Below, piece by piece: positions 1,859 through 63,999 of a stretch of DNA of 64,000 bases. This DNA is from a virus, in the IMG/VR virus record IMGVR_UViG_3300024339_000015; one strand, written 5' to 3'. Both the position numbers and the translations under genes were made by a program. The notes under the pieces were generated by a model, which saw only the letters and a program-made list of their open reading frames with translations, was not told the DNA's origin and searched no databases. Every line of letters begins with the position of its first letter. The stretch's first letter is position 1.

Positions 1859-3544
1859 CTATTGGTCAGCTACAACAGTGCCGACTTGTTTTAGTGCTAA
1901 GATTACCTCTGATAACCCGCTCATTGCACGCTGTATTGCGTCTTCTGGAATGTGGCTTTTACCCAATCTTGAAATGATAAGCATTTTAGCTAATTCAGAT
2001 AAAACCATCTCATATTGAGGAACCATGTTTACAAATTCCATGATATTGCCTTTATTTACCATACCTAACGATAATAAAGCGTCTACTGTTGCGGAATCTT
2101 CTACTACTGCCGCCTCTTTGATTAAGTCAGGCATTATAATAGAAACTTTCTTATTAAACTCCCCCACCTTTTTAATTAACTCACTCTTGGTATCTTTCAC
2201 AGACTTTGGAGACTTAACTGGGACTTTTATATGAGCAGTACCACAATTAGCTAATTTACTGATCTCTGTTACTACGCTTTCAGGACAATTGCAGTGAATT
2301 GCTGTTCAAACAGCCTCAGTTTTTGAAAGATCTCTTATAGAATTATCTTTACCGTACTTTTCAAAATCTGGTCCAGAGAACGAGTACAGGCCTACAGAAT
2401 CTTTAAAAACAGCGTTTCCTGGTGCTTGTTTGTCCCTAATCTGAAAAGATAGGCTAGTATCAAGAGGCTGGTCCACTTCCACAAACTTTGCGTTTCCTGG
2501 TACATAGAAAGCCCCTGCAATCTTGTCATGGTCTTCAAGCTTATCTGAATGGACTCTGATAGGATAATAAGCTACTTTATCAAGCCCTGTTCATCCGACA
2601 ACTTCAAAAGTTCCATGTCCGGCAACTTTTTGCATCCCAATAACCTCAAAAGGTTTGGTCATTGTTTCTCCAACCATCCAAGCCCCGTAACTGCCTACTT
2701 TAGGCATTATTCCCTGATTAAGCTCAGCATCCTTGTTGGTGTCGTTGCTAGCAGCTTTTTCAATCTCTTCGTCCGAAGCAAATAAATTACCCATTTCTTC
2801 TCCATCAAGTATCTTAGTAGTCCAAACATAGTCTACGGAGGAATTCGCTTGTTTTACAAAACGATTTCCTAAATCGTCCGAATACACTAATTGCCTGTCA
2901 ATAGGCAAATTTCTCACCATATTTTTCATCTCTCCTTCCTCAGTCATGAACTCTTTACCTGCTAATTTCTCCAGCACTTCTCCGTGCCCATTTGTTATAA
3001 AATTATTATACAAATCTTGGTCCTCATTTATTTTCTTTAACATAGACACTACGTCATCCCTACTGACCGACGAAATTTTCTCTATAAAAGATGCGTACTT
3101 AGCAGGACGCTCTGTCCCCGACGCGTTATTAAAAACAGACTCTACAGGTGAATATTGCATGTTGCCAGAAAACAAGCTAGTCACACCTTTGGGTGGAGAC
3201 TGCGCAACCCCTTTAAAGGGGTCAGTTTTTGTCATTAATTCTTGGATTGTGAGCGGTGTCAACGGATAAACTCTTCCGTTCATTAGAATAACATCTAATG
3301 ATGACAGCTCATAATTATTTATAATAACGGGAACCGTACCGCCCGCAACTTTTAATGCACCTACTGCTGTTCCTTTCTCTATATCTTTATTAACCCATTG
3401 CACAGAAACTTCTTGATCCTGCAACATCGGGAACTGCGTAAGAAAAACGGTGACAATTTGCTTTATCCAGCGAGTATGGTCAGAGTCTAATTTAGTATTT
3501 GCAGTTTTTTCAAACCTTTGTTTCGTTACAAATAAATTAGTCAT
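1859..3544 (-). CDS. Large structural/head protein, 561 aa with two in-frame TGA (2591-2593, 2306-2308)
   Basis: ORFs 2591..3544 and 1859..2200 share one frame and are separated only by TGA codons (VVG*TGLDKVAY; EAV*TAIHC); true stop is TAG. Confidence 0.85.
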
Positions 3545-3593: not shown

Positions 3594-3622
3594 AATATAG
3601 TAACCACTTAAAAGTTAGTCAA
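3594..3622 (-). promoter_or_regulatory. Sigma70-like promoter TTGACT-N17-TATATT
   Basis: Hexamers and 17-nt spacer read directly upstream of the 3544 gene. Confidence 0.65.
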
Positions 3623-15064: not shown

Positions 15065-15487
15065 ATGTCAATACAAAATTCCAAAGATACACCCAGCCAT
15101 TATTTTTCTAAGTCTAAAGCAATTTTTATGGAAATATCTAGTATGAACACTAAACATATAGAAAATGCTGTTAAAAAGTTAACCTACACTGACTCAGACG
15201 GCGACAGTGTAATGTACGACAAACGACTTGAAAACATGAAAAAAGAGCTTGATAAAAGATACAAACAGAAGCGAATAAATAAGTTGCGAGAAGGGATGGT
15301 CGGGTATTGGATAGGAAGTGATAATAAATTGTCATTTGTCCAAGACTTAGCTGATGAACATGTGCTAGCTATATTAAATAAATACCTGGAAGCTAGAACA
15401 TTTACAACGAACAGTGACAGAAGCATGCCTAATAAATATTATGAAATTAAAATTGAAACTTTAAGAAGAGGGCTAATTGACAGATGA
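15065..15487 (+). CDS. Hypothetical protein
   Basis: ORF track; ends at an ATGA overlap. Confidence 0.7.
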   Translation: MSIQNSKDTPSHYFSKSKAIFMEISSMNTKHIENAVKKLTYTDSDGDSVMYDKRLENMKKELDKRYKQKRINKLREGMVGYWIGSDNKLSFVQDLADEHVLAILNKYLEARTFTTNSDRSMPNKYYEIKIETLRRGLIDR

Positions 15488-16019
15488 AGATTAATGCATT
15501 AGAAATGGGCACAAAGAAGTCCTCTCAGGTTATACCTGTAATAAATGATTTGATAAAAGAAATAGAGGATTTAATGGAAATATCTAGTATGAACACTAAA
15601 CATATAGAAAATGCTGTTAAAAAGTTAACCTACACTGACTCAGACGGCGACAGTGTAATGTACGACAAACGACTTGAAAACATGAAAAAAGAGCTTGATA
15701 AAAGATACAAACAGAAGCGAATAAATAAGTTGCGAGAAGGGATGGTCGGGTATTGGATAGGAAGTGATAATAAATTGTCATTTGTCCAAGACTTAGCTGA
15801 TGAACATGTGCTAGCTATATTAAATAAATACCTGGAAGCTAGAACATTTACAACGAACAGTGACAGAAGCATGCCTAATAAATATTATGAAATTAAAATT
15901 GAAGCTTTAAGAAGAGGGCTAATTGACAGATGAAGATTAATGCATTAGAAATGGGCACAAAGAAGTCCTCTCAGGTTATACCTGTAATAAATGATTTGAT
16001 AAAAGAAATAGAGGATTTA
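15128..16019. repeat. Tandem duplication, 2 x 446 bp, one substitution seen
   Basis: Copies 15128-15573 and 15574-16019; GAAACT vs GAAGCT (ETLRR vs EALRR). Confidence 0.95.
15484..15933 (+). CDS. Chimeric ORF created by the duplication
   Basis: First 30 aa equal those of 15930..16133; remainder matches the 15065..15487 body. Confidence 0.6.
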   Translation: MKINALEMGTKKSSQVIPVINDLIKEIEDLMEISSMNTKHIENAVKKLTYTDSDGDSVMYDKRLENMKKELDKRYKQKRINKLREGMVGYWIGSDNKLSFVQDLADEHVLAILNKYLEARTFTTNSDRSMPNKYYEIKIEALRRGLIDR

Positions 16020-20711: not shown

Positions 20712-21103
20712 ATATGGAAAGCAAAGAAAATAAAATAGGTCATTTTGATTGTGCTTGTCACGATCGAGACCATATGATTAAAGTGTCCCATTTTAATTGG
20801 GGACCTGGTGATGAACATAATATACAAGAAATAGATTTTAATTTTGTTATACATCATACTTGTTGGGAAGCTAATAAAAATGGATATACTACTGAAAGTA
20901 GAATTCAAGAAAAGGCTAGAGATTTTCTTAACTTCTTTAGGCGCATTTGGTGGAGAATACGTAAATCGGCAGAAATACTTACTACTGGCAGTATAAAATT
21001 AGAAGGAAATTGGTCCGCTACAGAAGAAAGCTTTGCAGGTCTTAGAAAATGGATGAATAAAACCGCTAAGATAATTAAGCAAGAAAATGGGAGAGTATTG
21101 TAA
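20702..21103 (+). CDS. Hypothetical protein
   Basis: ORF track. Confidence 0.65.
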   Translation: MGLNMESKENKIGHFDCACHDRDHMIKVSHFNWGPGDEHNIQEIDFNFVIHHTCWEANKNGYTTESRIQEKARDFLNFFRRIWWRIRKSAEILTTGSIKLEGNWSATEESFAGLRKWMNKTAKIIKQENGRVL

Positions 21104-21903
21104 TGAGCGATGAAAAACAAACATGCTGTCAACCAGAAGAATCCTGTAAAGATGATATAAACGATGTGATGAGTTTAGAGGATAAAAAGAAAATGGAGCT
21201 TGACCTGTACTTATCTACATGCCAAGCAGCGGACGTAATACCAGACGACTTTGTTGTAAAAGCAGTAAAAGAATACTTACCGAGAAGCTATGATGGCCAC
21301 ACACACCACCATGCTAAACGAGAGTTAGAAATGGGCGAGTGGTTAAAAAAAGGCGAAGACACGCTGTATAACGGCATGATCGGAGAAGCAGTATTAGAAT
21401 TAATATCTGTTTTTGCAGGCCAAGGTCACTCCGGTATGAGTGCCGGAGTCGTAACAAGTTTATTTACAAAACTGTCAAAGCATGAGCCATTAGGCCCCCT
21501 TACGGGCGAAGACAACGAGTGGGTTTCTGATGTAGACAAATACAGTAAGGAGTTTGCAGAAGAAAATGGATATGGATACCAAAACAAACGTGAGTCTGCA
21601 GTATTTAAAAACAGTAAAGATGGTACGGCATACTATCTATACGCAATAGTGTTTAGAGAAGAGGATGGATCGACTTTTACAGGCAACAGTATTGAGATGC
21701 CTGACAGCAGCATGCTTACAAGCAGGCAGTACATAAAAGGATTTCCTTTTACACCTAAAACATTTTACATTGATGTTGTGTCGAAACGATACAAAGATAG
21801 AGATGAAAAACTTGAAGATATAAACGGGGACTGGTGGAAACACTGGATTAAGGACGAAAGCCAGTTGAAGGAAGTTTGGGAATACTACGATAAATATAAA
21901 TAA
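21103..21903 (+). CDS. Phage hypothetical protein (QGHSGMSA motif)
   Basis: ORF track; TAATG coupling. Confidence 0.75.
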   Translation: MSDEKQTCCQPEESCKDDINDVMSLEDKKKMELDLYLSTCQAADVIPDDFVVKAVKEYLPRSYDGHTHHHAKRELEMGEWLKKGEDTLYNGMIGEAVLELISVFAGQGHSGMSAGVVTSLFTKLSKHEPLGPLTGEDNEWVSDVDKYSKEFAEENGYGYQNKRESAVFKNSKDGTAYYLYAIVFREEDGSTFTGNSIEMPDSSMLTSRQYIKGFPFTPKTFYIDVVSKRYKDRDEKLEDINGDWWKHWIKDESQLKEVWEYYDKYK

Positions 21904-39159: not shown

Positions 39160-39503
39160 TATTTTATAATATCCTTATAGTGAGTACCTAGTTTAATATT
39201 ATTTTTTTTGAACCAACCTGAGTTAGTTTCTATAACATATTTATATTCACCAGCCCCGAACACTGGGTATCTCTGTTCCTCTACAAGCTTTTCCACGTTC
39301 AGAAGATTACCTTTTACATCAAAAAAGCCTACATCAATTGAGAAGGAAACATTTTTATTTCAAAAGTTACCAGACTTTGGTTCTCCAAAGATGAATAATG
39401 CACCTTCATTAGTCTTTAATTTATTTTGACCCATAAGACCTTTCATTTGGTCGTTAGGTGATGTGGCGGTAAATCTGATATTTAATTTATGTGTTTTTTT
39501 CAT
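39159..39503 (-). CDS. DUF192 family protein, 114 aa with TGA (39360-39362) at the conserved Trp
   Basis: Manually translated: MKGLM...EGALFIF...NF*NKNVSFSIDVGFFD...YVIETNSGWF; family consensus is FWMKN. Confidence 0.9.
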
Positions 39504-39529: not shown

Positions 39530-40126
39530 TTATAAGTAGATTTTTATTAAATTTCTAAGGGCATCAAATCTTGTTGCTTTATGTCTAAATGCTCCTACTC
39601 CAGACTCAATTGGATATAAAAATTCCCTGACTTTTCTAGATATAGGAATATCGTATCCTTTCATCATTCTGTTTTGAGCAGCAAATTCTTCTATCGCATC
39701 TCTCTTGCCTCTAGTAAATTTATCTTTCAGTGTTTTTGGTCTAAAAGTTTTTTGAGGGTTCTTTTGGTTTCTTATAGCGTGGGTAAGCTCATGCTTTTTT
39801 ATCATAGGATACTCCGCCCCCAACTTTCTTTTATTTAAAAAAACTAGTTGTTTTCCGCTTTTCATGCCTACAGTTTTTGCTACTGGGAATGAGCCTAAGT
39901 CTTGGTATAAACTTTCCCCCATTATTTTGCCTACAGCCTTATCCAGGTCATTTCAGTTATTTATTTCTTTTATTGACAAGGCAGTTTTAGTTAATTTTAA
40001 GTTTCCCAACCCAGTTCTTCTTAGTGCCCTAATAAAAGGTGGTTTTTTTCCAGCAGCCAAAGATTTGTCCATTAACTTTTTTAATTCCGGAACTTTTTTT
40101 GTACTAAGCGGTCTTTGGAAACTCAT
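39530..40126 (-). CDS. Late protein with HExxH motif, 198 aa via TGA 39953-39955
   Basis: ATG coupled to the RNAP stop (TAATG); in frame with 39530..39922; KKHELTHAIR. Confidence 0.7.
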
Positions 40127-43100
40127 TAATAATACTCCCCTTCATTTCTAGCAAATTCTTCCCCATAAATATATGCAGGTATTGGGTCTTTACCGTGTAT
40201 GTCCGTCACCTGACCAGCAGAAGCCCCCTCTACTAAAGCAGCTTTTATCCTATTAGTAGTAAATTTTGTTAACCAATCTTCACTGTCTGAGTTAAGAGTA
40301 TCTACGGATTTAAAATATGGCCTATATCCTATTAAGTCTAATCCAGTCATTTCCCTTTCTTTATTTAGTCTTTCAATTCTTGTAATGGACGTTTTGTCTC
40401 CCCTTAAAAACCCGCTACCTGTCGGAGCTTCTGTAATATATGCATTATCAGATATACCTCTTACTATAGTTTCAAATGTTTTCTTAAAAAATTTACTATC
40501 AAATACAGGACCATTTAGCTCGTCAACAATATATTGCTGTGCCTCTAAGTGAGATTTTAAGTCACTCAACTCTTGCGGTTTTATAGTTCCATCAGATACC
40601 TTATCTCCCACATTGACTAAGTCACCTATTTTTACTACTGGGATTCTTCCGGAAGGAACTGTAAACGTTTTGTCGTTCTGAGTTCCATACCCTTCTATTC
40701 TAAGGTCATAACCTCCTATAGGATTCTTTTCTATCCACTTTACCTTTCCCTTTACATCGCTAAGAGTAGCTTTACCGAGCAGCTTCTCAGGAACTTTTAA
40801 CAATTGTTCTAATCTAGGAAATTTATCTGTCAAGCCTCCACCCGCAGACGCAGATCCACCACTATGAAAAGTTTTCATAACTAATTGTGTCGAGCGTTCG
40901 GTCAAAGCTTGGGACTCAAGAATACCAATAGAAACACCTACTGAAGGTAGACTTCCGTTAGGCATTAACCCGTAACAAAAACTGCAGATACCTTCTACAG
41001 ACTCACAAGTCAAGGGGCTACGAACTTTTATTGACCTTATTCCTGCAGTCTTTAGCTTCAAAATCATGTTACTATTGATCAAGTCATTTCTCCTTGCGAC
41101 ACCAGACACGGACTGTCCTAGAACTCTATCCATGGCGTCCTTGCTATCCACCGTCATTTCTATATCTCTTAATGTCTTGCAATCTTCTTCAGTAATAAGT
41201 AAATTTCTATTTACGCTAAGCAAAGTTTTGTTTAAAGCCCCAGAATCCTGAGTATTTACTGCTCTGTCAATAGTTCCCTTTCTTACCGCATACATTGAAT
41301 TAAAGTATGATGGAGTGTCTATCCCCTCACCGTAAGATTTTAAAACGGGTATAGGCAACGCTTTACCAGAAACATCCTGCAAAACCCCTGGCATCGATAA
41401 AACTTGTCTTATAGAGTCTTTCTTACTAAAAGATCCTGACTCATACATTCTGTATAAATTATTTGAGGAAGATAGGCTTTTATCTTGTGCTTTTTCTGTA
41501 TCAGTAGTAAGCTTTAATAAAGCCTCTATTCTTTTATCTCCTGACATCGCCTGTATCTTAGGAAGTCTGTCTTTATACAGTCTATCTCTATAATCCCTAT
41601 TTATAGCAAAATCTGTAATAGATACAGTGTTACCGATTGTATGCCCATACTGGACAGATAAATCCTTCCAGGCATTTATAATAACAGAAAATTTATCACG
41701 GTAGTTCTTTCCTACCCTAGAAAGCACGTCACCAACTGTATTAGCATCCATTACGCGGGAGTAATCCTTTAATGGCTCTGGCAAATCTTTATTTATATAG
41801 TACTGCCCAAGAGTCATATTTTGTCTGCCTAGCTTAAAAACATCTGTCATCTCAAGTCTTGCACTCTTAGCATCTGATATAGTCTTAAAAGATTTACCGG
41901 TATTTTTACCTAGTAAGCTAGCTTGGTACAGCCCTAACTGGTAATCCTGTCCCAGATCGGGTACAACAGAAAGATCACCGTGCTTAAAAATATTTTTACT
42001 TGGTAACATACGATTAGCTTCTTCTATTGCATCGTTGCCAATTGGTATGTTTACTGACATAGTGTCCCCGTCAAAGTCAGCATTAAACCCTTTCACAACT
42101 ATAGGGTTTAATTTTATATCACTTCCATCAGTAAGGACGGTATTAAATGCTTGAATACTATGTTTGTGTAAAGAAGGCGCCCTATTAATAACTACTGGTC
42201 TAGATTTTACTACATTATTTAAAGAATTTTTAGCTAAAATATCTTCGTCATTGTATGCTTTTAAAGCTGCTGACGCACTCATACCTTGTTGCTTTAAATC
42301 CTTTATAATAAAAGGTTGAAATATCTTGTAAGCCATTTTAGTGGGAACGCCTACCTGGTCTATCCCCAAGGACGGCTCAACAGTGATGGTAGATCTTCCT
42401 GATAAATCCTGTCTAGAGTCCCACATAGTACCGTGAACAAACCCACGTTTTAAACTTTGTCCAGATAAATCTTTTAAAATACCCTTATACTTTTTATTCC
42501 CATAAGTTATTGGGTCTATAAACCCTTGTAGAGCTTTTACAGAACTATATAAATTATTTGAGTACTTAATTTCATCTTCTTTAGTTAGTACGTTAGCTGC
42601 TTTAGCTTTTCTATAACCCTGGTTGATAAGCCCCACATCCCTATAATGGTGATTTAAATCATTTACCATTAAATCTCCAGAGGGTAATGGATAAATTGGT
42701 CTAAAAATTGGCGGTAAAACTGGTAGGTATTGCATAGTATACGCATCATAAGCACTTAACTTCAACTTTTTTAAATTCTGTAAAAACCTAACCTTTTTAT
42801 TCAATTTATTGACATCTGATGGAGGAGCTTTTTTTAACATACGTTTTGATGAAGTGAGCTCTTTACCCACATCTAAGCTTTTAAGTGCTGAAAGTATAGA
42901 ATTAAAACCGCCAGCTTTTTTAAAGCTAGGATCTAATCTCTCACTACCATCCATAACAGAACTAAATTTATTTTCTGTTATACCCAGTATTTTTTGAATA
43001 GAATCTTGATACATAGGATTAGGTATTCTATCAACTAACTTAATGTGGGACCAATTCTTCCCAGAAGACCCGCCTGTAACGTCGTTGTCAAATAAACCTC

Positions 43101-46100
43101 CTTTCCTGCTAGCAAGGTTTTTACCTATCAATAACGCACCAGGATCTTTTAATTCCCCATTACTTAATTTTTTTACATCCTTGTCTGTGAGAGGAAAGAT
43201 TTTTATTGTGTCGCCAACTTTCTCTGTATTTACGCCAGCTGCTTTTAATCTATTTAACATCTTATCAAATACAAAGTTTCTAGACGGTTTAGGGGGCATC
43301 AAACCCAATTGTAATGCTCTCCAGTACTCTTCATTTTCTCTGCCTTTTATGTTTGCAATTTCATACAAATTATTTTTTGCACCATGGGCCAAATATGCGT
43401 AAGTCTCCATATGACCAGCTTTCTGTGCACCTTTACCAACAGGCCTGTTGTCTACATCATAGCTTCCTATTCCGTGACCAGCGGATTTTTTCTTGACGAT
43501 GTGCCTAAGTTTCATAAAATATTTTTCACCGACAAATATGGGGTTTTTAAAAGCTTTCCCAGTCTTACCATCAGTTAAAATTTCATTAGGCTCAACGCCT
43601 GCTTTCTTTATATCAGCCAGCACCCTTTTAGAAGAGTCATCATTCGGGTCATCGAAGTTATCTACTATATAAGTGTTTCCAGTTTTCTTTGCAATTTTTC
43701 CAGCCCCAGCTTCTAAGAGTTGTCCAATATTCATACGTCCAGGGACACCGTGTGGGTTCAACATTATGTCTACAGAAGTACCATCGGGCCTATGTGGTGC
43801 TTCACTGTCAGGAATTATTTTAGTAACAATATTTTTATTACCATATCTCCCGCTCAGTTTGTCAGCTAGTTTAAATGGGTGTACAGATTTTATGTAAATA
43901 TCTAAGTTTCTACCTATTTTTTTAATATCTATTACTGTACCAGACTCATCCTCATCTCACTCTACAACAACTTTGGTGTACATACTAAATATAGCCTTAT
44001 TTAATTTTTTTAATGCTCTTTCTTGATCATCCAAAACTTTTTCAACTAAAAAAGCTGCCACTACCTCACCAGGAAAAAATTCTTTTCCTTTTTTTGCTAT
44101 ACCATCTGACCCTAACTTAGCTAGGTTATCTGGACTAATCTCATCTGGATACCACGCCGAAAACTTTTTCTTATCAAACGAACTAATCTTAGGATTAAAG
44201 TAAACATTTTTTTTATGGATCATTGTGTGTGAAAGTTTTTCAGCAGCACTTTCCGTTATCACTGCTCCGTCTTCGAAATTGTATCCTTTCCAAGGCATGT
44301 ATGCCACAGTCAAATTTTTACCTATTGATAAAGCTCCGTTACTAGAATAATTGCTGTCAGCTAGTGAGTCCCCCTCTTTTACTTTGTCCCCTACTTTAAC
44401 TAATACATCGGAGTGAAGAAATCCATCTTGATTTAATGGAAAATTATTGTACAGTCCCTTACTGAATGACTCCCCGTTAGACTTTTTTATAGTCACGTAA
44501 TCATCTGTAATTTTTTCTATAATACCTCGCTCCCCTTTCAGTATGACCGGATTTAAAAAGTTTCCTACTAACTGTTCGTACGTTTTATCTTCATCCCGTT
44601 TTACCTGGACATAAGGAGCTTCTTTTTGATCTAATGCAAGCGCCTGTGTAATCATGCGACCTCCCATCGACCCCCTATTACCTTGTACAGTTTCTAAAAA
44701 AGGAACCATATTTGACTCAAAGGAAAACATAGATTTAGGCGATCTCAAGTAAAAATCGACTTCTGAAGATGAGATCTTCTTAGTTTTACCTTCATGCATA
44801 ACAATAACTCTAGGCCCTCGTGACTTGGGAAGACCGTTAACAGTTATATATTGATCTGGAAATCCTACCACCTTAGAAAAAAACTGAGTAGGATTTAAAT
44901 AGTGGATTTTTCCTTTCTTATCAATTACCGGGCTAGTTATGTCATTTCCTACCTTATGGACTTCTGAAGTTAAGCCGACTGACACCCCAATTTTCCCCGA
45001 TTCTGGGGTAGCGAGGGAGTCTAAAAAACCGAAGTGTGAAGGTTGGACAGACCTAGCCTCCATTGTAATTGCATGGCTACTACCTATCCCACCCGTGCCC
45101 ATTGGTGTCGTTTTTCTCCAATCAGCTAGTATACTTGCAGGGTTAGTTTGTGGAGGAGTTGCAGATAAGTCGCCCACAGTAAAGAACTCTTTTATTGGCT
45201 TAGAGAAAGCACTAGCACTAACAATATCCCTAACGTTATCTTTCAATGACATGGATCGGATCATTTTTCTCTGCAAAGATTCTTTATGTTTATCAAAATG
45301 TGCTGACAATAAATCATCTATACCATATATATTTTTAAAGATTAAACTATCTCTTTTGTCGGGTATATCGATCCCTTTATTTATATTCAGTAACTTCACC
45401 GATGAAGCTAATAAGGTTTTTCCATTTACAGTTTCGTATCCTGTACCTAGAGTCACCTTAGTTGTTTCTTTACTAACTTTTGTATAGTTATTGAAGTACT
45501 CATTTAAGCCATTAATAACCTCCTTATAATCTTTCGGATCTTTTTTGTAGAAGTTTTTGTAAATTGAGGTCATTTCTGAAACCTCAGTATTTAGTGCCCC
45601 TTTTTTATTTAGTAATAAAAGGTCAGATCCCCAAGCTTTTTCCATATCTCTATCAGATACGCCGAGTAAGTTTAGTAATGTCCAGAGTCTATATTTTCTA
45701 TTTTTTAATATTACAACAAAAATTTGTTTTATAGGATCCAGCTGCATTTTAAAATTATAGCCACGCTCAAGATTAAATTCATTCTCAAGCTCACCATTAT
45801 TCTTTACCCTAGCATATATACCAGACTTTCTTCTAAGTTGGTTGGTTGTTTGATACTCATTACCGTCTATTATTGCTGTGAACCTGTTTGTTAGCTTTGG
45901 TATGTGTCCTATTTTTGAATTTTTTTTCTGACTAATAATCTTACCAGAAGTAGAGTCAATAATCTTTATATCAGCATATATAGGAATTTGCCATGTCTTC
46001 CTGTTTAATTTTACTTTCTTTTGCTCAGGGAAATCCATATCAGAGAGAGTATCTTTTACTACGACATTCTCTATAATAAGTTTTCTACCATTAGATTCTA

Positions 46101-46188
46101 CGGGGAAGGCCGCCTCTATAGAGTTAGATATGGAAGAAAAGATGTTTTTATTCTGGAGTCGGTGGTCTAAGTAATTAGCGTTTTTCAT
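40126..46188 (-). CDS. rpoBC: Fused beta-beta' multisubunit RNA polymerase, 2020 aa with in-frame TGA 43957-43959
   Basis: Beta motifs TPES, YNFEDG, DKLSGRYGNK, NPHGVPGRMN; beta' motifs DLSGRS, NRAPSLH, NADFDGD; the two track ORFs share one frame, and the gap between them encodes DKLSGRYGNK. Confidence 0.93.
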
Positions 46189-46210: not shown

Positions 46211-46222
46211 TGGTATAAGAAT
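46211..46222 (+). promoter_or_regulatory. TGGTATAAGAAT motif at the strand switch
   Basis: Divergent from the RNAP gene. Confidence 0.6.
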
Positions 46223-46558
46223 TAAGTAACGTTGTACTGTTTAAATATAAACTAACAGTACGGCTATGTCAACTGATAAACCAGGGACATATTTTTGAAT
46301 ACAAAAGAAAAAGAAAGTGATCCCAACGACGAAATTTACGTCGAACCTTGGGGTAAGTAAGGAAAGAAAGGGACTATCTGTCTCTTTCTAATTTAAAAAA
46401 AATAACCATATTTATCTATGAAAGATTCTGAAATGAAGTCATCAATAACAGACATAGTAAAAACTGTTTCTACGTTTGTACTTGATCTAATTTATGGCAC
46501 CGACGAAGAACACACAAAAAAAGATTCGAAAAAAAAAGATAAGTAAAGGAAACTAAAG

Positions 46559-54731: not shown

Positions 54732-54936
54732 TAGGAACTACCTCAAGCTTATCTAGGTCATCACTATCATTTATCACGTCAGGATCATAGTCTAGCTCTT
54801 CTCACCTATCACCCTCCCCATTATAATAGTTAGAAACTTTTTCTAATCCTTTATCATCTGTACATAAAATTTTAGTTATTTTACCTGTGGAAGTATTTTT
54901 AAAAACTTTATACGTTCCATATTTTGTCATAGACAT
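54721..54936 (-). CDS. Small late protein, 71 aa via TGA 54802-54804
   Basis: TAATG-coupled to the portal gene; ...LEKVSNYYNGEGDR*EELDY... Confidence 0.7.
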
Positions 54937-56801
54937 TATACATTCCCTCTGGTTTGTCCCTTCTGTTTTTCAGAGTCATCCTGCACTCGCTGTGTTTCTG
55001 ACTGTTGGTTGTTCTGGGACTGATTACTAATATTTTTAGCTGCTTGTTCAGCTTGCTGTTGCTGTATCATCATAATCTGGTTCATTCTTTCCGTAACTAA
55101 GCCGTACGTAATTGGCATATCTGCTGCCATTTTTTGTAACCTTTGTTTCTGTTGAGCTTGTGGCAACCCAAGCAATTCGTACGAATACCTCTCAATTAAT
55201 TGAGCAGGATCAGCTGGTATTCCTTGGTTCTCTCTTGCGAGTTCTTCCCCAAATAGTTCAGCTTTCAGTCTTGTTTGCTCACTTTGAGCTGCTTGCTGAG
55301 CCCGAACATTGTACCTAGCAATAGTTATACCTGCCTTACCTTGTGCCTCGGCCGCAGCTATTTGTCTATTAGATTGCTGTTCGTTCATTATAGACTGGGT
55401 TTTTTGTAGGGCCTCTTGCTCTGCGGCATAGTTGTACCCAAACTCATCCAGTAACCTAGCATCACTAATCTTACCGGTTTGGTTTAAATTAATAGCTAAC
55501 TGTTTTGCAGAAGCATCGTCAGCCATTTTAAACTTTTTAAAGTGTACCTTTACCTTAGGATAACTTAATATTTTATTTATTTTTGTAAGTACAAAGTGAT
55601 TTAAAAAATCAGTTAGTAGCTCCCTATACGTAAGAAAATGGTTCTCAACAATACGTAACGATACGCTAGAACTTGTCCAAGAGCCACCACCTTTAATAAA
55701 CTCTACTGGAACACCTAAACTATTTATTATACTTTCTTCTAAAAATCGCATCTCTGGAGTTAGCAATAACGCTCTAGCATTACCACCTAACTCTTGGTAA
55801 CCGATAGGGATAGGAAAAACACCAATATGGTTTGGGTCTTTTTTCCACTTTTTAATTTGGTCCTCCATTTGTCCTTTCCATTTACCGAGATTCATTTGTG
55901 TGAACGGATCAAGTGTAGTTGTATTAGCAGGATGAATAGCTTTTTTTGGAACAATATGCTCATTAGCAATTGCTTCATTACCACGTCTTAAGGTTTGTAA
56001 GTAATAAATTTCTTTTAGAGCAGGCAGTATAATTGGCTTGCCCCATCCCATATCTTCTTCTGCAAGAGTAGGTCTTTTAAAATGATAAAAATTAGACTGG
56101 TCTAATTCAATTTTCTTTCTTTTCTTTAGTGACTTAAGAAAAATAGCCGGAACACCTTTTAATATAGTTTTATTTCCTGATATAATTTGACTCTTAATCT
56201 TAGGTGGTATACTATAAAAGTAAGTAGATTTTCCAGTTATAGGATTAAATTCAATATCAATATTTTCTGGAGACCATCTCACTAGATCAAAGTTATCTAT
56301 AGACTTAAAGTACTCGTCTTCTACTGACATCATTATTTCTCCAGCACCACAAGAATCACATTTTCCATGGAATTGGAATTTTTTTAGCTTAAAGTTCTTT
56401 ATGTTATCAATTAAGTCTGTATTGCCGCAACTAGAGCACTTTAAAAAACGTCTAAAGCCTACTGAAGCGGATATAAAAGCGTTGCCGTAAGTAAAATAGT
56501 CTAACCCTATGCTTATCAAAAAACTTTTAATTTTTAGTTTATCATGTAAAGCAGTGTCATACTTATCCCTAGTTGCTGAATCAATACTATTTTCATATAA
56601 AATATCAGTGATAGGGTATTCAGTAAGCTTTGTAATTATATTATTTAAGAACCCATTAGTATAAAAGAATGTTCTACAATACTTAAATAAAGTCTTTATA
56701 TTTTTTGGTATAAAATTTCTAGCTAAATCGAAAAAAGGGTTCGGGTATTTATTACCCGTCGTGCTTGTTATATCAGCATCTGAGATTGGTCTTACTGGCA
56801 T
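54936..56801 (-). CDS. Portal protein
   Basis: Size, LVRWSPENI...FYHFK...WGKPII, head-gene context, Gln-rich tail. Confidence 0.75.
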   Translation of the reverse strand: MPVRPISDADITSTTGNKYPNPFFDLARNFIPKNIKTLFKYCRTFFYTNGFLNNIITKLTEYPITDILYENSIDSATRDKYDTALHDKLKIKSFLISIGLDYFTYGNAFISASVGFRRFLKCSSCGNTDLIDNIKNFKLKKFQFHGKCDSCGAGEIMMSVEDEYFKSIDNFDLVRWSPENIDIEFNPITGKSTYFYSIPPKIKSQIISGNKTILKGVPAIFLKSLKKRKKIELDQSNFYHFKRPTLAEEDMGWGKPIILPALKEIYYLQTLRRGNEAIANEHIVPKKAIHPANTTTLDPFTQMNLGKWKGQMEDQIKKWKKDPNHIGVFPIPIGYQELGGNARALLLTPEMRFLEESIINSLGVPVEFIKGGGSWTSSSVSLRIVENHFLTYRELLTDFLNHFVLTKINKILSYPKVKVHFKKFKMADDASAKQLAINLNQTGKISDARLLDEFGYNYAAEQEALQKTQSIMNEQQSNRQIAAAEAQGKAGITIARYNVRAQQAAQSEQTRLKAELFGEELARENQGIPADPAQLIERYSYELLGLPQAQQKQRLQKMAADMPITYGLVTERMNQIMMIQQQQAEQAAKNISNQSQNNQQSETQRVQDDSEKQKGQTRGNV

Positions 56802-57305: not shown

Positions 57306-57654
57306 TGCTTTCTAAAATTGGGTCAGTAGTGCCTATATGTTTATCAAGAAACTTTTTATAAATTGGGTTCATTGTGAGAGCTATTGCCATAGCAGGAGCT
57401 ATCTTTAAAGCTTTTAATCCTATACCGCTGTAATGTTTTTTAAAAAAGTTTTTTCTAACTGAATTGCCCACATTCCTTGCTCCCTCTACCTGTTTATTTG
57501 TGATAGATGCATCTAGAGGGTAAAGAATCGGAAGACTTGATATACCAGCTAAGCCTCCAGCTACTAAACTTTTTACTGGGTCGGGCAGGCTAAATCTTTT
57601 TTCTTTTTTGCCTTCGGCATACTTTACTAACATAAAAGAATGGTCAACGTTCAC
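57298..57654 (-). CDS. Protein resembling one mitochondrial-carrier (SLC25) repeat
   Basis: LVAGGLAGISSLPILYPLD...YSG...LKIAPAMAI...YKKFL. Confidence 0.55.
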   Translation of the reverse strand: MNVDHSFMLVKYAEGKKEKRFSLPDPVKSLVAGGLAGISSLPILYPLDASITNKQVEGARNVGNSVRKNFFKKHYSGIGLKALKIAPAMAIALTMNPIYKKFLDKHIGTTDPILESNE

Positions 57655-58649
57655 TATTCATCCTCCAGAGCAGCGTCCATAAAACACCCTCTTGCCACGG
57701 CTGTTAAAGGCTCCTCTACCAGCTTTATCTCACTAATATTAATAGGAAATTCCTTTTGATTAAATTGAGCTTTAAATACTTCGATAAACCCTTTAATCAT
57801 AGACGTACCTCCACCTATCACTATTGGCACTGCCTCTGGAAAATGAGGCATAGCTTCGTTTATTTCAAATTGATTAGCAATATTATCTAAGAGGTATTTA
57901 ATTAATACCTGATAATAACTTCTAATTGCGTGTACCTCTCGTTCATTGTCTTCATCATAAATTGTATTATCTGATAAGTCTATTTTATTAGATTCTTTTA
58001 TAAATTGAGCTTTAGCTAGAGGTATTCCAGTATCTAAAGAGACGTGTTGATCTATAAAATCTCCACCCCTACTAACACTAAAAGTTAGTGCAACCAATCC
58101 TTGGTACATTATAGCGATATTAGCCATTCCTGCGCCCATTGATATTGATATCCCCGTTAGATTATTATTATTATCAGATAGTCCAGCATATCCTAAAGCT
58201 TCTGCTTCTTTTATAGACCTAGCTTTGTACCCTATACTTTCAATCATGGTTGATAAAACATCTTCGTGATAGTCCACTAACGTTTCTTTATCTATTGGCT
58301 TAGATGGTACACAATAAACACATACTTCTCCGTCTTCAGAAGGTTTCCCCAGTAGTGAGGAAATAATTTCCCGTAAAACCGGTAAGGCGTCCCTTTCAGA
58401 TGGGTTTAATAGTCCCTTAGACATAGGCCTCTTTAAATCCTTATTACCAAATATTTGTGCATAGTCATAAGCGCTCTTGCCAATAACATGCAATCTTTTA
58501 TTAATCTCAACAAACGGCACATTTAATCGTTTTAGTGACTTAATAGTAGTCGGGCTTTTATCTATTGTTAAAAAAGCATTTCGTTGTATTTTTACACCGT
58601 CCTCTGATGCAGCTACGTAATTCCCTGTCCCACAATCTAATCCTTTCAT
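57654..58649 (-). CDS. Actin-fold ATPase (MreB/ParM/FtsA-like)
   Basis: GLDCGT phosphate-1, SMGAG phosphate-2, IVIGGGTS adenosine motif. Confidence 0.85.
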   Translation of the reverse strand: MKGLDCGTGNYVAASEDGVKIQRNAFLTIDKSPTTIKSLKRLNVPFVEINKRLHVIGKSAYDYAQIFGNKDLKRPMSKGLLNPSERDALPVLREIISSLLGKPSEDGEVCVYCVPSKPIDKETLVDYHEDVLSTMIESIGYKARSIKEAEALGYAGLSDNNNNLTGISISMGAGMANIAIMYQGLVALTFSVSRGGDFIDQHVSLDTGIPLAKAQFIKESNKIDLSDNTIYDEDNEREVHAIRSYYQVLIKYLLDNIANQFEINEAMPHFPEAVPIVIGGGTSMIKGFIEVFKAQFNQKEFPINISEIKLVEEPLTAVARGCFMDAALEDE

Positions 58650-58652
58650 AAA

Positions 58653-59204
58653 TTATTTACCTTTCATTTTTTTTAAATCTTTTAAAGCCTTTTTTATGTC
58701 TACCCTACTTTTTTCAAGTTTAATATCCATACTACTAGTAGTGGCCTTTTCTATGTAAGGGTTTGACCCTTTCTTTATGTCTATATGTTTTGGTACAGAA
58801 TACTTACGTACATCAACTTCCTTAGAAGTACTCGATGTTTTTTTGTCACTACTTACCACACTATTTACTACTATCGGAGAATTAGTACTTTTTTTAAACC
58901 AAAATGCTGCTATGAAAATTGATAGCAATACTAATAAAATCCTGAATTCTACTACGTAATAATATATAGGGTTTTGCACTGTTTCTATTGGAATAAGTAT
59001 TTCATCCCCAGGAAATATTTTATCGGGATTAATTCCTAAGGATTCTTTGTTTAAATGGTAAACACTACTTCAAGAAACTCCGTAAATTTCAGATATTTTA
59101 CTAACAGATTCACCGCTTCTTACTGTGTGCTGTTTAGCTCTAATATAATCAGTACCAAACAAAAACGACGTTACCAGCAGTAAGTATACTAATAACCTTT
59201 TCAT
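58653..59204 (-). CDS. Signal peptide + LysM + TM protein, 183 aa via TGA 59070-59072
   Basis: Manually translated: HTVRSGESVSKISEIYGVS*SSVYHLNKESLGINPDKIFPGDEILIP, in frame with 58653..58979. Confidence 0.88.
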
Positions 59205-60283: not shown

Positions 60284-60898
60284 TTAGCCCTCGTTTTTTA
60301 TTTTATTTATGTAATCGTAAGCAACATACCCAGGACATGCAGGCTTCCCGAAGTCAGCGTGACCATATATGTCTGCTTTAGTTATAGACAATTTATCCAT
60401 ATTAAGCAAGTGTTCTATCAATTTTTTTAGAGACGAGAGCTGTGCTTGAGAAGGTCCACTAGATGTTCCTTTGTGACCCTCGCCGTCAAAGTCACCAACC
60501 AACATTATTCCTATACTTGATGTATTTTGTCCCTTAGCTTGCCATACGGTATGACTTAATTGATTACAGTGGTATACATCCCCTTCTTTTGATATCCCAT
60601 AATGATAACAAAAATGGGGACACCCGTTAGGAGAGATATGATTAGGTTGGATATGGTAGTTATTGACTTGCTCTACTGTGGCATCACCAAGTTCTTGGTG
60701 CACAATTATTTTATTTATAGATGCTAGCGATCTTTTACTTCATTTTCTTGACTCGTGCCATTGTAACTCACTAATTACATTATCAATAACAAATGGTTTT
60801 TTTATTGCCTCTTCTGAAACTTTTTTATCTGGAGCTGGTATTGTCCTCTTTAGTAAGATTTTAATAAATTCTCAAACGTATGTTAGTATTATTTTCAT
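60284..60898 (-). CDS. Endolysin, type-2 N-acetylmuramoyl-L-alanine amidase, 204 aa via TGA 60872-60874 and 60740-60742
   Basis: KIIVHQ, YHYGI, SIGIMLVGDF, YGHADFGKPACPG; the first zinc-ligand strand is only complete with the upstream TGA-containing N-terminus. Confidence 0.9.
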
Positions 60899-60911: not shown

Positions 60912-61178
60912 TTAGTTTTGGGCAGGCCTGGTAGGAATTGAACCCACGCACTCCGTTTTGGACGCGGAGGGGGACAGTTTTGAAGACTGCTCGTCACCCA
61001 GCTGACGCCTCAGGCCTATTTTATTTTTTATATAGTCCTGTGACGCATTATTAGCATCATCAATATTATTGTATGCATTATCTAGAATTTTGGTTTGTTG
61101 TAAACAATGGTCGTCTATTTGTACAGAAAAATTGTCTGTACCATAAATAGCGTCTATATGTATTTCGAGTCTCTTCAT
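60912..61178 (-). CDS. ORF whose 3' third is the UCA tRNA
   Basis: TAATG-coupled start; no stop before the tRNA. Confidence 0.45.
   Translation of the reverse strand: MKRLEIHIDAIYGTDNFSVQIDDHCLQQTKILDNAYNNIDDANNASQDYIKNKIGLRRQLGDEQSSKLSPSASKTECVGSIPTRPAQN
60919..61018 (-). tRNA. tRNA with UCA anticodon (reads UGA), long variable arm, Sec-like/suppressor
   Basis: AGGCCTG/CAGGCCT acceptor (8 bp with U:G, then C-CCA), D-stem CGTCA/TGACG, GCAGT-CTTCAAA-ACTGT, CTCCG/CGGAG extra arm, GTGGG-TTCAATT-CCTAC. Confidence 0.9.
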
Positions 61179-61914: not shown

Positions 61915-62052
61915 ATTATTGTAGTTTGGTTAAGTTTGAAAGTGTTATATTATTTAATATATTAAGTTTGATTATGAAAAGCAATGGTTATTTATGGTAT
62001 TTTTCTTTTATATTTTATAGCTGTTTCCCACCTAGACATTATGCCCTAAATA

Positions 62053-63999
62053 CTACCCACAATGGTACGTACAACCAACAAACGCTACCATGTACACTAC
62101 TCCATCATACTCCACCTCTTCTAGTTTATACTTAGTATCATCATCAAAATTACAGTCCATTGTTATTTTAGCAACAGTATAGTTGTGTAGTACATCATCT
62201 GATTGTTTCATGCCTATACCAGGAATAGGTGATGAAGTTATATAGTCCCCATTTTCTAGATTTCCAGAATAATTTGATATCCAAACAGCACCCTCCCCTA
62301 AGGAGTTTATTTTTAAGTACTCATTTAGCATAGAGTTTCCTTCACTGTCTACAAGTAGATTTTTATCATCGTCAAATTTTCTGGTGTTAGTAATGCCAGA
62401 TATAACGCCGTAAACCGACTTATCCATTTTTGTGGAAGATACCTCAACATTCGTTCATGTGTCCATTATATCAATAGAAGAGATACCCGTATTCATTGAC
62501 CGATCTGTATAACCAGGACTAGAAGTGACAATTTTACCTATATAATTCTCTATGTTATCCTTGTAGTAGTTAATTGTATTATCAGATGGCCATGATTTAT
62601 GGGTACCAGTAAAAAATAAACTGGTCCAAAATACTCCCCCAGTATCATCGGTTAGGAACTCATCGTTAGCTGCAGTTGAATTGTTAGAATCGTATAAGAA
62701 CGATCTCATTCTAACAGTACCGTTGACATCAAGCTGACTAGTTGGAGCGTCAACATTTATACCTACGTTCCCACCAGAAATATTTAGTTTATTACCATTC
62801 TCAAGTTTAAAATTTATAAAAGACCCTGGAGTACCTCACCCTATATAACACCCCCTAGTATCAGAACTATCTCTTACTTCAAAGTACCCATAGTGGTCGG
62901 AGTCGGAAGTATATTTAGATGTAATAGCTCCATAATTACATCTTATTTTTCCCCCACTTACATCAAATAGCTCCCCAGGGTTGGTAGTGCCAACACCGAC
63001 ATTTCCATCATACTTTATAGTCAGTCTGTCAAATAAGTCCTTATCATAAAGGTTATTAACGGCAAATCTAAGGTCAGTTTTGTCATAACTGGTATTCATA
63101 TTATCAGTGTGCCTTACAGCCCTAATTGCAGCCCCTATCTGGTCAGTGTCCTCGGATGGATTCATAGTATTTGATTTAAAAGCGATCCCAGCGAATGCGT
63201 TTTCTGTTGCATTATCGTTGTGTATAACTAGCTCAAAGTCACTAAATATGTTATTGTTGGATGTAGTTGTGCCGTCATCTCCCCTAATTTCCATAACCCC
63301 AGCAGCAATTGTCCCTACGCCACCTGCACTTAATTTATTAGTAATTTTGACATCACCACCCGTTACATATAATTTATATGAACCATTTAGATTATCATCT
63401 CCGATAGTTACTTGTCCTGCTGTAATTCCTTTTTGAAAATATGGGGGGAAAGAATCGTAGGATGACGCGGCTAAAAGTCTAAAATCAAAAGTAGATTTTA
63501 ATCAAAAGTACCTTGCGCCAGAGGTATGCCTTCCCAAGTTGGTGTAGGAAACGCCGTTTAGTTCAACATCGTAGCTTCAAAAAGCGTCTCCATCCAAATT
63601 ATTAGATGTAGCCCCTGTCAGGTCATCAGCGTCTCCTCCAAAATTGTATTTTCCAAGCGAAAAATCACTGCTAGTAGTACCAAAACCTAACGAAAGAGTG
63701 TTGGAGTTATAAGTTGAGTTAGTTGCATATGATTCTAATGTTGTGGAACTAACACCTACAGATCGTTTATAATAAAAAGTAGAGTTGGCTCCTTCTATGT
63801 ATACTTGGTGTCCTCCTCTTAGTCCTGGAGTAATTATCATTCCTATCGGATAGTCCAGCGATGGGGTCTCCATCCGAACCATACCAGCACTCTCCCCGCC
63901 TCGAGCTCCATTTAAAATTAAAGCATAGTAATTTCCGGAACCGGAAGTCCAATCTGATACATATCTCACGAAATATTTTCCAAAATCAGCATGTGTCTC
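62053..63999 (-). CDS. Tail fibre-like protein, partial, one frame with four TGA (63577, 63502, 62836, 62455)
   Basis: Four track ORFs join in frame; GNVGVGTTNP/GNVGIN repeats; C-terminal NSLGEGAVW...NGDYITSS...VAKITMDC domain; TAG stop. Confidence 0.88.

What the first reader, a model, noticed from the sequence alone, without database searches (positions are those of the whole stretch)
43765..43959. One UGA gates the phage's own fused RNA polymerase
Seen: VVVE*DEDESG... at 43957-43959 lies about 30 codons before DKLSGRYGNK and then NPHGVPGRMN, and upstream of the whole beta' part including NADFDGD. It is the only TGA in 2020 codons. Knowledge: these motifs are needed for catalysis. Inference: without suppression only a dead 743-aa beta fragment is made, so UGA decoding could act as a master switch or positive-feedback loop for late transcription. 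This raises a bootstrap question because the UCA tRNA is itself in a late-looking block.
Basis: partly seen in the sequence, partly recalled or inferred. Interest (0 to 1): 0.8.

Follow-up and report, generated by a model that had tools for sequence, protein, structure and literature searches.

The report
Trp-coding TGA in phage RNA polymerase
The single TGA inside this marine phage's fused RNA polymerase gene is real, but it is an ordinary tryptophan codon of the phage's second genetic code, which it uses for late genes, and not a conserved, purpose-built switch.

Summary
The minus-strand gene 40126-46188 encodes a 2020-codon fused beta-beta' RNA polymerase. Its one in-frame TGA (43957-43959, codon 744) lies inside the beta catalytic domain, upstream of all catalytic motifs. 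Independent marine assemblies and one metatranscriptome contig carry the same letters.

The codon aligns with Trp (TGG) in most relatives, including cultured Salmonella phage Arash. The window uses two codes. Plus-strand genes have 171 TGG, no in-frame TGA, and 9 TGA stops. Minus-strand genes (portal, endolysin, tail-fibre-like, RNAP operon) have 65 TGG, 14 in-frame TGA, and no TGA stop. A phage tRNA(UCA) lies in the lysis cassette.

One TGA among 13 Trp codons is what the late-gene background predicts (about 2.6 expected). Four of the closer relatives have TGG at codon 744. Recoded relatives carry 1 to about 9 TGAs at other Trp positions, and only two share this one.

So full-length RNAP needs UGA decoding, as every late gene does. 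Arash RNAP was the top-counted protein in purified virion preparations, so the likeliest reading is a late-made, possibly packaged enzyme.

The scan noted the same idea before on other DNA (e1-5349155). This is a new member of a known kind.

The parts
40126..46188 (-). Fused beta-beta' RNA polymerase gene, 2020 codons, 12 TGG + 1 TGA
   Evidence: Translation. Pfam Rpb2_3, Rpb2_6, Rpb1_1/2/4/5. 31% identity to Arash gp206 over residues 19-1400.
43957..43959 (-). In-frame TGA, codon 744, read as Trp
   Evidence: Aligns with TGG/Trp in L002, L003, L004, L005, L006, L008, L018, L019, L021 and Arash. It is TGA in L020 and L022, and TAT in L001 and L007. Identical in independent assemblies.
46244..46272 (-). 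Sigma70-type promoter-like site TTGACA-17 nt-TATATT, 56 nt upstream of the RNAP ATG
   Evidence: 11 of 12 match, the best gene-proximal match in the window. TTGAC[AT] or TTGATT, an exact 17-nt spacer and TATATT are present upstream of the RNAP in 7 of 7 relatives.
46212..46221 (+). Copy of the clade-wide GGTATAAGAA element (TTCTTATACC on the minus strand), pointing away from the RNAP gene
   Evidence: 10 exact copies in the window, all in one orientation. 23:2, 9:0 and 9:0 in relatives. It lies 22-94 nt upstream of genes on the strand opposite to the RNAP.
39530..40120 (-). Next gene of the RNAP operon, in-frame TGA at 39953
   Evidence: Same-frame continuity across the TGA. No Pfam family.
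39162..39503 (-). DUF192 gene of the RNAP operon, in-frame TGA at 39360
   Evidence: The Pfam DUF192 match (residues 13-107, E 1.4e-20) spans the TGA at codon 48 when it is read as Trp.
60919..61018 (-). Phage tRNA with UCA anticodon and long variable arm, in the lysis cassette, overlapping the end of an 88-aa ORF
   Evidence: ARAGORN. Rfam tRNA-Sec 38.5 bits, below the gathering score of 47. A homologue in relative G004 has compensatory acceptor-stem changes, A1-U72 and G73, and no encoded CCA.
61956..61984 (-). Candidate promoter TTGCTT-17 nt-TATATT, 41 nt upstream of the first gene of the lysis/tRNA cassette (weak)
   Evidence: Read. Only 8 of 12 match. The relative G004 has TTGATT-17-TATATT at the same distance (42 nt) from the first cassette gene. 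This is inference.
60284..60880 (-). Amidase_2 endolysin with in-frame TGAs at 60872 and 60740
   Evidence: Pfam Amidase_2. The TGA at 60740 aligns with W in L023.
58653..59198 (-). LysM protein with in-frame TGA at 59070
   Evidence: The Pfam LysM match (residues 24-70) spans the TGA. It aligns with W in L023.
62053..63999 (-). Tail-fibre-like gene (runs off the window) with four in-frame TGAs (62455, 62836, 63502, 63577)
   Evidence: Four code-11 ORFs lie in one frame and join into 648 aa.
1859..3544 (-). Structural-block gene with in-frame TGAs at 2591 and 2306; TTGACT-17-TATATT site 50 nt upstream (3594-3622)
   Evidence: Both TGAs align with W in the uninterrupted homologue of relative G001. 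Promoter-like site.

Best explanation
The TGA at codon 744 is a sense codon for tryptophan. The phage writes its genes in two codes. Plus-strand genes (replication, repair, anti-defence; presumably early or middle) use only TGG for Trp and sometimes end in TGA. Minus-strand genes (portal, lysis, tail fibre and the RNAP operon) use TGA for about one Trp in five and never as a stop.

A phage tRNA with anticodon UCA, sitting in the lysis cassette, is the likely decoder. The RNAP gene belongs to the second class in this phage and in every TGA-recoded relative examined. Its TGAs drift among conserved Trp codons by single TGG/TGA transitions.

The consequence, which is inferred, is that full-length RNAP can be made only in the phase when UGA is decodable, together with virion and lysis proteins. 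The most coherent reason is also inferred. This RNAP would be a late product, probably packaged into virions with a phage sigma factor, as mass spectrometry of purified Arash virions suggests for the homologue. It would then transcribe the standard-code genes from the phage-specific GGTATAAGAA elements in the next infection.

The codon therefore ties RNAP synthesis to the code switch as a member of the late class. It is not a dedicated master switch.
For: - Shown: TGA = Trp. Codon 744 aligns with TGG in 9 relatives and with W in Arash.
- Shown: 12 of 15 TGA columns in relatives' RNAPs align with W in at least one other row and none does with Gly. Fragment ends of about 20 database proteins fall just before W633, W679, W744, W956 and W1256.
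- Shown: TGAs at 2591, 2306, 60740 and 59070 align with W. Pfam domains DUF192 and LysM span their TGAs.
- Shown: dual code in the window. Plus strand 0 of 171 Trp codons are TGA; minus strand 14 of 79 (Fisher p = 4e-8). TGA stops are 9 of 62 versus 0 of 26, including ATGA start/stop overlaps.
- Shown: the pattern is replicated in relative G004. RNAP 4 TGA/9 TGG, structural genes 57/85, and most opposite-strand genes have no internal TGA.
- Shown: the RNAP is not enriched. 1 of 13 versus 13 of 66 in other late genes (p = 0.44), with 2.6 expected.
- Shown: the position is labile. TGG in L002, L019, L021 and L018; TGA in L020 and L022. Coding state changes at least twice on the RNAP tree.
- Shown: the tRNA(UCA) is conserved, with compensatory changes, in a recoded relative and was not found in standard-code G001 and G002.
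- Supports the inference: only one RNAP locus in a complete relative. Relatives encode a sigma70-family factor. Arash gp206, gp216 and sigma gp10 are abundant in purified virions (PMC10585845). The standard-code genes carry a non-sigma70 upstream element.
Against: - No expression timing, proteomics or virion data exist for this phage. 'Early' and 'late' are inferred from gene content and coding.
- The Arash authors themselves note that abundant enzymes might merely co-purify with virions. Arash is only 31% identical to this RNAP.
- The RNAP gene has the best sigma70-type promoter in the window, conserved in 7 of 7 relatives. This would also fit early transcription by host RNAP, a T7-like layout, in which a UGA would truly delay translation.
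- The tRNA has a Sec/Ser-like body (long variable arm, extended D-stem). The inserted residue is inferred from alignments, not shown.
- The host and its genetic code are unknown.
Confidence: 0.72

Rival explanations
1. A dedicated translational gate. Host RNAP transcribes the RNAP operon early from the conserved sigma70-type promoter. The UGA holds back full-length enzyme until the suppressor tRNA accumulates. New RNAP then boosts late transcription, either as a feed-forward timer or as positive feedback.
For: - The truncated product lacks all catalytic motifs.
- A conserved TTGAC[AT]-17-TATATT promoter precedes the RNAP in 7 of 7 relatives, and it is the best sigma70-like site in the window.
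- All five recoded relatives read at DNA level have at least one TGA at or before codon 744, and database fragment ends agree.
- A similar TTGnnn-17-TATATT site may precede the tRNA/lysis cassette. The tRNA and the RNAP mRNA could therefore share one transcription class.
Against: - The position is not conserved. Four of the closer relatives have TGG here.
- TGA frequency in the RNAP equals or falls below the late-gene background.
- Standard-code relatives L002 and L001 have no TGA at all in the RNAP.
- Having at least one TGA in a 13-Trp gene is expected by chance (P = 0.94).
- If new RNAP drove transcription of the plus-strand genes, those genes would be translated while the suppressor is present. 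Their strict avoidance of in-frame TGA and their use of TGA stops argue against that.
- Relatives with 4 to about 9 TGAs exclude a leaky-read-through bootstrap.
Confidence: 0.13
2. The host itself reads UGA as Trp (a code-4 organism). No gating or phage suppressor would then be involved, and TGA would simply be a minor Trp codon.
For: TGA aligns with Trp throughout. Some recoded phages lack detectable suppressor tRNAs (Borges et al. preprint).
Against: - 0 of 171 Trp codons are TGA in plus-strand genes, and 9 of those genes end in TGA, five of them in ATGA overlaps with the next start.
- The phage carries its own tRNA(UCA), conserved in a recoded relative.
- The sister lineage L002 is standard-code.
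- No free-living marine code-4 bacterium is known (my own knowledge).
Confidence: 0.05
3. The TGA is a true stop. This could be a pseudogene or assembly error. It could be a natural split into two RNAP polypeptides, as in phiKZ/AR9-type phages. Or it could be a selenocysteine codon read by the Sec-like tRNA.
For: - ARAGORN and Rfam rank the tRNA nearest to tRNA-Sec.
- Jumbo-phage RNAPs are split into several polypeptides (PMC4666361, listed).
Against: - The sequence is identical in several independent assemblies and in one RNA contig.
- No in-frame start codon exists for 64 codons after the TGA, and the essential GRYGNK motif lies in that gap.
- The frame stays open and conserved on both sides, and homologues are uninterrupted.
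- The folding energy downstream of the TGA is ordinary (z = -0.81). The aligned residues are Trp/Tyr/Phe, not Cys.
- Fourteen TGAs in unrelated proteins would not all be selenocysteine.
Confidence: 0.03

Closest known systems
Alternatively coded (TGA to Trp) phages with suppressor tRNAs and a mid-infection code switch (Borges et al., bioRxiv 10.1101/2021.08.26.457843; Yutin et al. 2021, PMC7886860)
   Same: In-frame TGAs at Trp positions are concentrated in structural and lysis genes. Other genes are compatible with the standard code. The phage encodes a tRNA(UCA). Genomic GC is low. Close relatives switch code over short distances. TGA stops are rare but present.
   Different: This is a marine clade of about 150-190 kb, not a gut phage. 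The partition follows the DNA strand almost perfectly. The recoded class includes a cellular-type fused beta-beta' RNAP operon. The tRNA has a Sec/Ser-like body. No RF1 or TrpRS gene was seen, but the window was not scanned exhaustively.
crAss-like phage RNAP genes interrupted by reassigned stop codons (Yutin et al. 2021, PMC7886860); the crAss-type RNAP is a virion protein that transcribes early genes
   Same: A phage RNA polymerase ORF can be translated only if a reassigned stop is read. There the RNAP is known to be made late and packaged.
   Different: The crAss RNAP is a single-chain two-barrel enzyme related to RNAi-type polymerases, not a beta-beta' homologue. Packaging is unproven for the clade studied here.
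Salmonella phage Arash RNAP (gp206 = beta fused to N-terminal beta'; gp216 = rest of beta'; sigma gp10), PMC10585845
   Same: 31% identity, collinear over residues 19-1400, running through the beta/beta' junction and the DxDxD motif. Trp at the position of codon 744. The genome is about 180 kb. A sigma70-family factor is also encoded in relatives of the window phage.
   Different: Arash uses the standard code. Its beta' is split once. It infects Salmonella. Its RNAP was detected by mass spectrometry as the top-counted protein in purified virions, which is untested here.
phiKZ/AR9 virion and non-virion multisubunit RNAPs (PMC4666361, PMC5449584)
   Same: Phage-encoded beta/beta'-like polymerases. 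One set is made in mid-to-late infection (middle genes in phiKZ) and injected to transcribe early genes from phage-specific promoters.
   Different: Those enzymes are split into 4-5 polypeptides, are highly divergent, have no sigma factor, and come as two sets per genome. Here there is one fused gene per genome, and it is much closer to bacterial RNAP.

Membership tests
TGA to Trp recoded phage with suppressor tRNA | In-frame TGAs in conserved genes that align with Trp in homologues | tested here: met
   RNAP codon 744. TGAs at 2591 and 2306. TGAs at 60740 and 59070. Relatives' TGAs fall mostly on W/Y/F columns.
TGA to Trp recoded phage with suppressor tRNA | Phage-encoded tRNA with anticodon UCA | tested here: met
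   ARAGORN places it at 60919-61018. A homologue with compensatory stem changes is present in recoded relative G004. Rfam score is 38.5 bits against tRNA-Sec, below the gathering score. Charging with Trp was not tested.
TGA to Trp recoded phage with suppressor tRNA | Recoding confined to a late gene set, with the other genes compatible with the standard code | tested here: met
   0 of 171 versus 14 of 79 Trp codons are TGA (p = 4e-8). TGA stops occur only on the plus strand. Relative G004 shows the same pattern. Gene timing itself is inferred.
TGA to Trp recoded phage with suppressor tRNA | Host uses the standard code | not testable with these tools
   The host is unknown and no genome is held. 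The only indirect evidence is TGA stops and ATGA overlaps in plus-strand genes.
Conserved programmed stop-codon gate (position-specific regulatory read-through) | The stop codon is conserved at the same position in relatives | tested here: not met
   TGG in L002, L019, L021, L018, L003, L005 and L008; TAT in L001 and L007; TGA only in L020 and L022. Ancestral retention or independent origin cannot be told apart on the tree.
Conserved programmed stop-codon gate (position-specific regulatory read-through) | Excess of the stop codon in this gene over the background of its class | tested here: not met
   1 of 13 versus 13 of 66 (p = 0.44), with 2.6 expected. In G004, 4 of 13 versus 57 of 142 (p = 0.57).
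Bacterial-type multisubunit RNAP, beta-beta' fusion | Beta and beta' domains with catalytic motifs in one reading frame | tested here: met
   Pfam Rpb2_3, Rpb2_6, Rpb1_1, Rpb1_2, Rpb1_4 and Rpb1_5. GRYGNK, NPHGVPGRMN and NADFDGD are present. Relatives have uninterrupted ORFs of 2040-2425 aa.
Virion-packaged phage RNAP (Arash-like) | Homology to an RNAP detected in purified virions | tested here: met
   31% identity over 1461 aligned positions to Arash gp206. gp206 had 3516 spectra, the most of any protein in Arash virion preparations.
Virion-packaged phage RNAP (Arash-like) | The protein is present in virions of this phage | not testable with these tools
   The phage is uncultured and no proteome is available.
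Selenoprotein (UGA = Sec) | SECIS hairpin after the UGA and Cys/Sec in homologues | tested here: not met
   The folding energy of the 86 nt around and downstream of the TGA is ordinary (z = -0.81). Homologues have Trp or Tyr at this site.
Split RNAP subunits (phiKZ/AR9-like) | A start codon and an independent ORF directly after the break | tested here: not met
   The next in-frame ATG/GTG/TTG is 64 codons downstream, beyond the GRYGNK motif.

The most novel reading that the evidence does not exclude
A cosmopolitan marine phage clade couples its whole transcription programme to a strand-partitioned dual genetic code. Standard-code genes are driven by a clade-specific GGTATAAGAA element. UGA=Trp genes are driven by sigma70-type TTGACA-17-TATATT promoters. 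The phage's only RNA polymerase is deliberately kept in the UGA-dependent class, so polymerase supply (for packaging or for a late boost) is licensed by a Sec-like tRNA(UCA) embedded in the lysis cassette. This would be a translational checkpoint on the phage's own transcription machinery.
Probability: 0.15. Interest if true: 0.75.

Novelty: new member of a known kind. Interest (0 to 1): 0.42.

Why it matters
Gene callers using code 11 break this polymerase into fragments. About 20 database entries are such fragments, each ending just before a Trp codon, so the enzyme family is under-recognised.

The RNAP consistently belongs to the UGA-dependent gene class in a widespread marine phage clade. 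That gives a testable prediction about its biology: late synthesis, and possibly virion delivery together with a phage sigma factor.

The finding also extends the code-switch model, described so far mostly for gut phages, to marine phages with a cellular-type RNAP.

It does not, however, reveal a new regulatory principle. The specific 'one codon as master switch' idea fails its own comparative test.

Tried and rejected
- **Whole-genome search:** not possible, because no genome is held for this window.
- **PHROGs on structural-block proteins:** almost nothing found, only a portal match at 54936-56801.
- **Tail-fibre-like protein P0002:** no homologue found in three relatives' records, so its four TGAs could not be checked by alignment.
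- **tRNA DNA search in standard-code relatives:** only short T-arm matches to other tRNAs.
- **Sigma70 promoter just upstream of the tRNA:** TTTACA-16-GATAAT at 61104-61077 is not conserved in the relative and lies inside a conserved 88-aa ORF, so I rejected it.
- **TTCTTATACC as a promoter for the RNAP and other minus-strand units:** I first read it this way. I rejected that after relatives showed that its reverse complement sits 22-76 nt upstream of genes on the opposite strand.
- **Sigma factor gene in the window:** none found.
- **Literature on a fused beta-beta' marine phage RNAP:** searches found none.
- **SECIS-like structure:** none found.
- **3' context of in-frame TGAs versus TGA stops:** no clear difference.
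- **DNA for relative P0021:** could not be fetched.
- **Metatranscriptome contigs:** they cover the gene but cannot show strand, timing or 5' ends.
Full report
**Observation.** The gene is on the minus strand, 40126-46188. Read with TGA as a sense codon it gives 2020 residues with a single non-standard step, TGA at codon 744 (43957-43959).

Pfam finds beta domains (Rpb2_3, Rpb2_6) followed by beta' domains (Rpb1_1, 1_2, 1_4, 1_5) in one frame. The TGA falls inside Rpb2_6 (residues 590-911), not at the subunit junction. GRYGNK, NPHGVPGRMN and NADFDGD all lie downstream of it.

Under code 11 the product is 743 aa. The next in-frame start codon of any common type is 64 codons further on, beyond GRYGNK. 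The gene is therefore not a natural two-piece enzyme.

The same letters occur in contigs of three DNA runs and in one metatranscriptome contig spanning the site, with 0 differences over 2 kb. At least 12 marine or seawater studies hold the stretch.

**What the codon means.** Ten IMG/VR relatives were fetched. Six of them (L001, L002, L003, L005, L007, L008; 34-58% identity) have an uninterrupted fused ORF of 2040-2425 aa under the standard code.

At the aligned position six loci have TGG, two have TAT and one has AAT. The closest, L002, reads LVE-W-DEEEAGTVIDI with TGG. Cultured Salmonella phage Arash also has Trp there. The window's codon is one transition away from TGG.

A protein search with the 743-aa fragment returned about 20 RNAP pieces at 46-63% identity. 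Many of them end exactly before a Trp of the window protein: W633, W679, W744, W956 or W1256. The DNA of five such relatives shows that the interruptions are all TGA. These TGAs fall mostly on columns where other sequences have W, or Y/F. TGA = Trp is therefore well supported for the clade.

**The RNAP is not alone.** In the window, in-frame TGAs occur only in minus-strand genes, 14 codons in about ten genes.
- The RNAP itself (1 TGA).
- The next two genes of its operon, with TGAs at 39953 and at 39360. The latter lies inside a DUF192 domain match.
- An Amidase_2 endolysin (2 TGAs) and a LysM protein (1 TGA, inside the LysM match).
- A 561-aa structural-block protein (2 TGAs, both W in the homologue).
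- A tail-fibre-like protein (4 TGAs), and two small ORFs.

Plus-strand genes include DNA ligase, RNA ligase, a Tad3 homologue, MoxR/VWA, a reverse transcriptase and a glycosyltransferase. They have 171 TGG and no in-frame TGA. Nine of these 62 genes end in TGA, five of them in ATGA overlaps with the next start.

The contrast of 0 of 171 against 14 of 79 gives p = 4e-8. The same partition is seen in the 73-kb relative G004. Its RNAP has 4 TGA and 9 TGG, its three downstream operon genes have 5 TGA, its structural genes have 57 TGA and 85 TGG, and most opposite-strand genes have no internal TGA.

A tRNA with anticodon UCA lies at 60919-61018 in the lysis cassette. G004 has a syntenic homologue with compensatory acceptor-stem changes, A1-U72 and G73, and no encoded CCA. 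The standard-code relatives gave no match.

The answer is mostly the latter.
- L002, L019, L021 and L018 have TGG at column 744.
- L019 has TGAs at 679 and 1507.
- L021 has TGAs at 169, 956, 1046 and 1507.
- L018 has a TGA at 737.
- Only L020 and L022, which are sister taxa, share TGA at 744.

On the RNAP tree the window is sister to (L018, L021) + (L020, L022). Recoded L019 pairs with standard-code L002 at 98/98 support. Coding state therefore changed at least twice, and the TGA at 744 was either gained twice or gained once and reverted.

With the late-gene TGA fraction (13 of 66), 2.6 TGAs are expected among the RNAP's 13 Trp codons. At least one is expected with P = 0.94, and the observed single TGA is unremarkable. 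In G004 the RNAP's TGA fraction equals that of the structural genes (p = 0.57).

Every recoded relative has a TGA before the catalytic motifs, but this is what random synonymous use predicts.

**What remains true.** The RNAP is consistently a member of the UGA-dependent class, and its divergent neighbours (MoxR, VWA, RT) never are. Full-length RNAP can therefore be made only when UGA is decodable.

Relatives with 4 to about 9 TGAs cannot rely on leaky read-through. The tRNA must be expressed independently of new RNAP, which removes the proposed positive-feedback bootstrap.

**Transcription signals (partly inferred).** The RNAP ATG is preceded by TTGACA-17-TATATT (46272-46244). This is the best sigma70-type site next to a gene in the window. 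All seven relatives keep a TTGAC[AT] or TTGATT box, an exact 17-nt spacer and TATATT. A second exact hit precedes the structural gene at 3544.

A weaker TTGCTT-17-TATATT lies 41 nt before the first gene of the lysis/tRNA cassette. G004 has a counterpart at the same distance.

In contrast, the only enriched intergenic word is GGTATAAGAA. There are 10 exact copies in the window, all in one orientation, and 23:2, 9:0 and 9:0 in relatives. It sits 22-94 nt upstream of genes on the strand opposite to the RNAP. The standard-code genes thus carry a phage-specific, extended-minus-10-like element rather than a sigma70 consensus.

Relatives encode a sigma70-family factor, but none lies in this window. 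A complete relative has only one RNAP locus.

**A cultured homologue.** Arash gp206 is a fusion of beta with the N-terminal part of beta'. It is collinear with residues 19-1400 at 31% identity. In purified Arash virion preparations it was the protein with the most spectra. The rest of beta' (gp216) and a sigma factor (gp10) were also abundant. The authors suggest a role in early transcription but note that co-purification is possible (PMC10585845).

**Most likely mechanism.** The RNAP would be a late product, written in the late code like the virion and lysis genes. It would probably be packaged with a sigma factor to transcribe the standard-code genes in the next cell. This fits four things: the strand-partitioned code, the phage-specific element upstream of standard-code genes, the single RNAP locus, and the heavy TGA load in relatives.

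It is an inference. The conserved sigma70-type promoter keeps a T7-like early-RNAP model with a real translational delay alive, at perhaps 10-15%.

**Comparison with the known.** Code switching confined to late genes with suppressor tRNAs is described for gut phages (10.1101/2021.08.26.457843; PMC7886860). RNAP ORFs interrupted by reassigned stops are described for crAss-like phages, whose RNAP is a virion protein.

The case here is a new member of that kind, in a marine clade with a cellular-type fused RNAP.

**Verdict.** The 'master switch' reading is not supported as a codon-specific device, but dependence of the polymerase on the code switch is real. Interest is moderate.

Noticed in passing
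window 843, 6578, 10664, 11827, 12909, 14503, 14766, 32990, 34299, 46212 (10-mers, TTCTTATACC on the minus strand): A clade-wide 10-mer, GGTATAAGAA (consensus about tTTGGTATAAGAAt), has 10 exact copies, all in one orientation, and strand ratios of 23:2, 9:0 and 9:0 in relatives. It lies 22-94 nt upstream of genes on the strand opposite to the RNAP. It resembles an extended -10 (TGnTATAAG) with G instead of T at the last position. It is probably the promoter class of the standard-code genes, possibly read by the phage sigma factor.
   Followed up: partly
window 60912-61178 (minus); L023 7050-7316: A conserved 88-aa ORF whose last third is the tRNA(UCA) gene. The ORF has the same length and arrangement in the relative, with codon-like divergence upstream of the tRNA.
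   Followed up: partly
window 57654-58649 (minus): A 331-aa protein matches Pfam Volactin (E 5e-65), with weaker MreB/FtsA matches. This is an actin-like protein inside the head/lysis gene block.
   Followed up: no
L020 13532-15571; L022 11735-16873: Relatives' RNAP genes carry an intein with a LAGLIDADG endonuclease in the beta' part. The intein region also contains in-frame TGAs.
   Followed up: no
window 15065-15933: Two adjacent plus-strand genes end in identical sequence around their TGA stops (ctaattgacagaTGAagattaatgcattag). This is a tandem duplication, each copy with an ATGA overlap and a TAG four codons after the TGA.
   Followed up: no
window plus-strand TGA stops at 15487, 15933, 16133, 34677, 37020, 52353: Six of the nine TGA stops are followed by an in-frame TAA or TAG within 1-8 codons. 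These are possible back-up stops for the phase when UGA is suppressed. I did not test this against chance.
   Followed up: no
window 21103-21903 (plus): A homologue of the Thoeris inhibitor Tad3 (Pfam PF25185, E 4e-31) lies among the standard-code genes.
   Followed up: no
RNAP tree, L019 versus L002: A TGA-recoded phage (L019) and a standard-code phage (L002) are sister taxa on the RNAP tree (98/98). The code has therefore been gained or lost more than once in this clade.
   Followed up: partly
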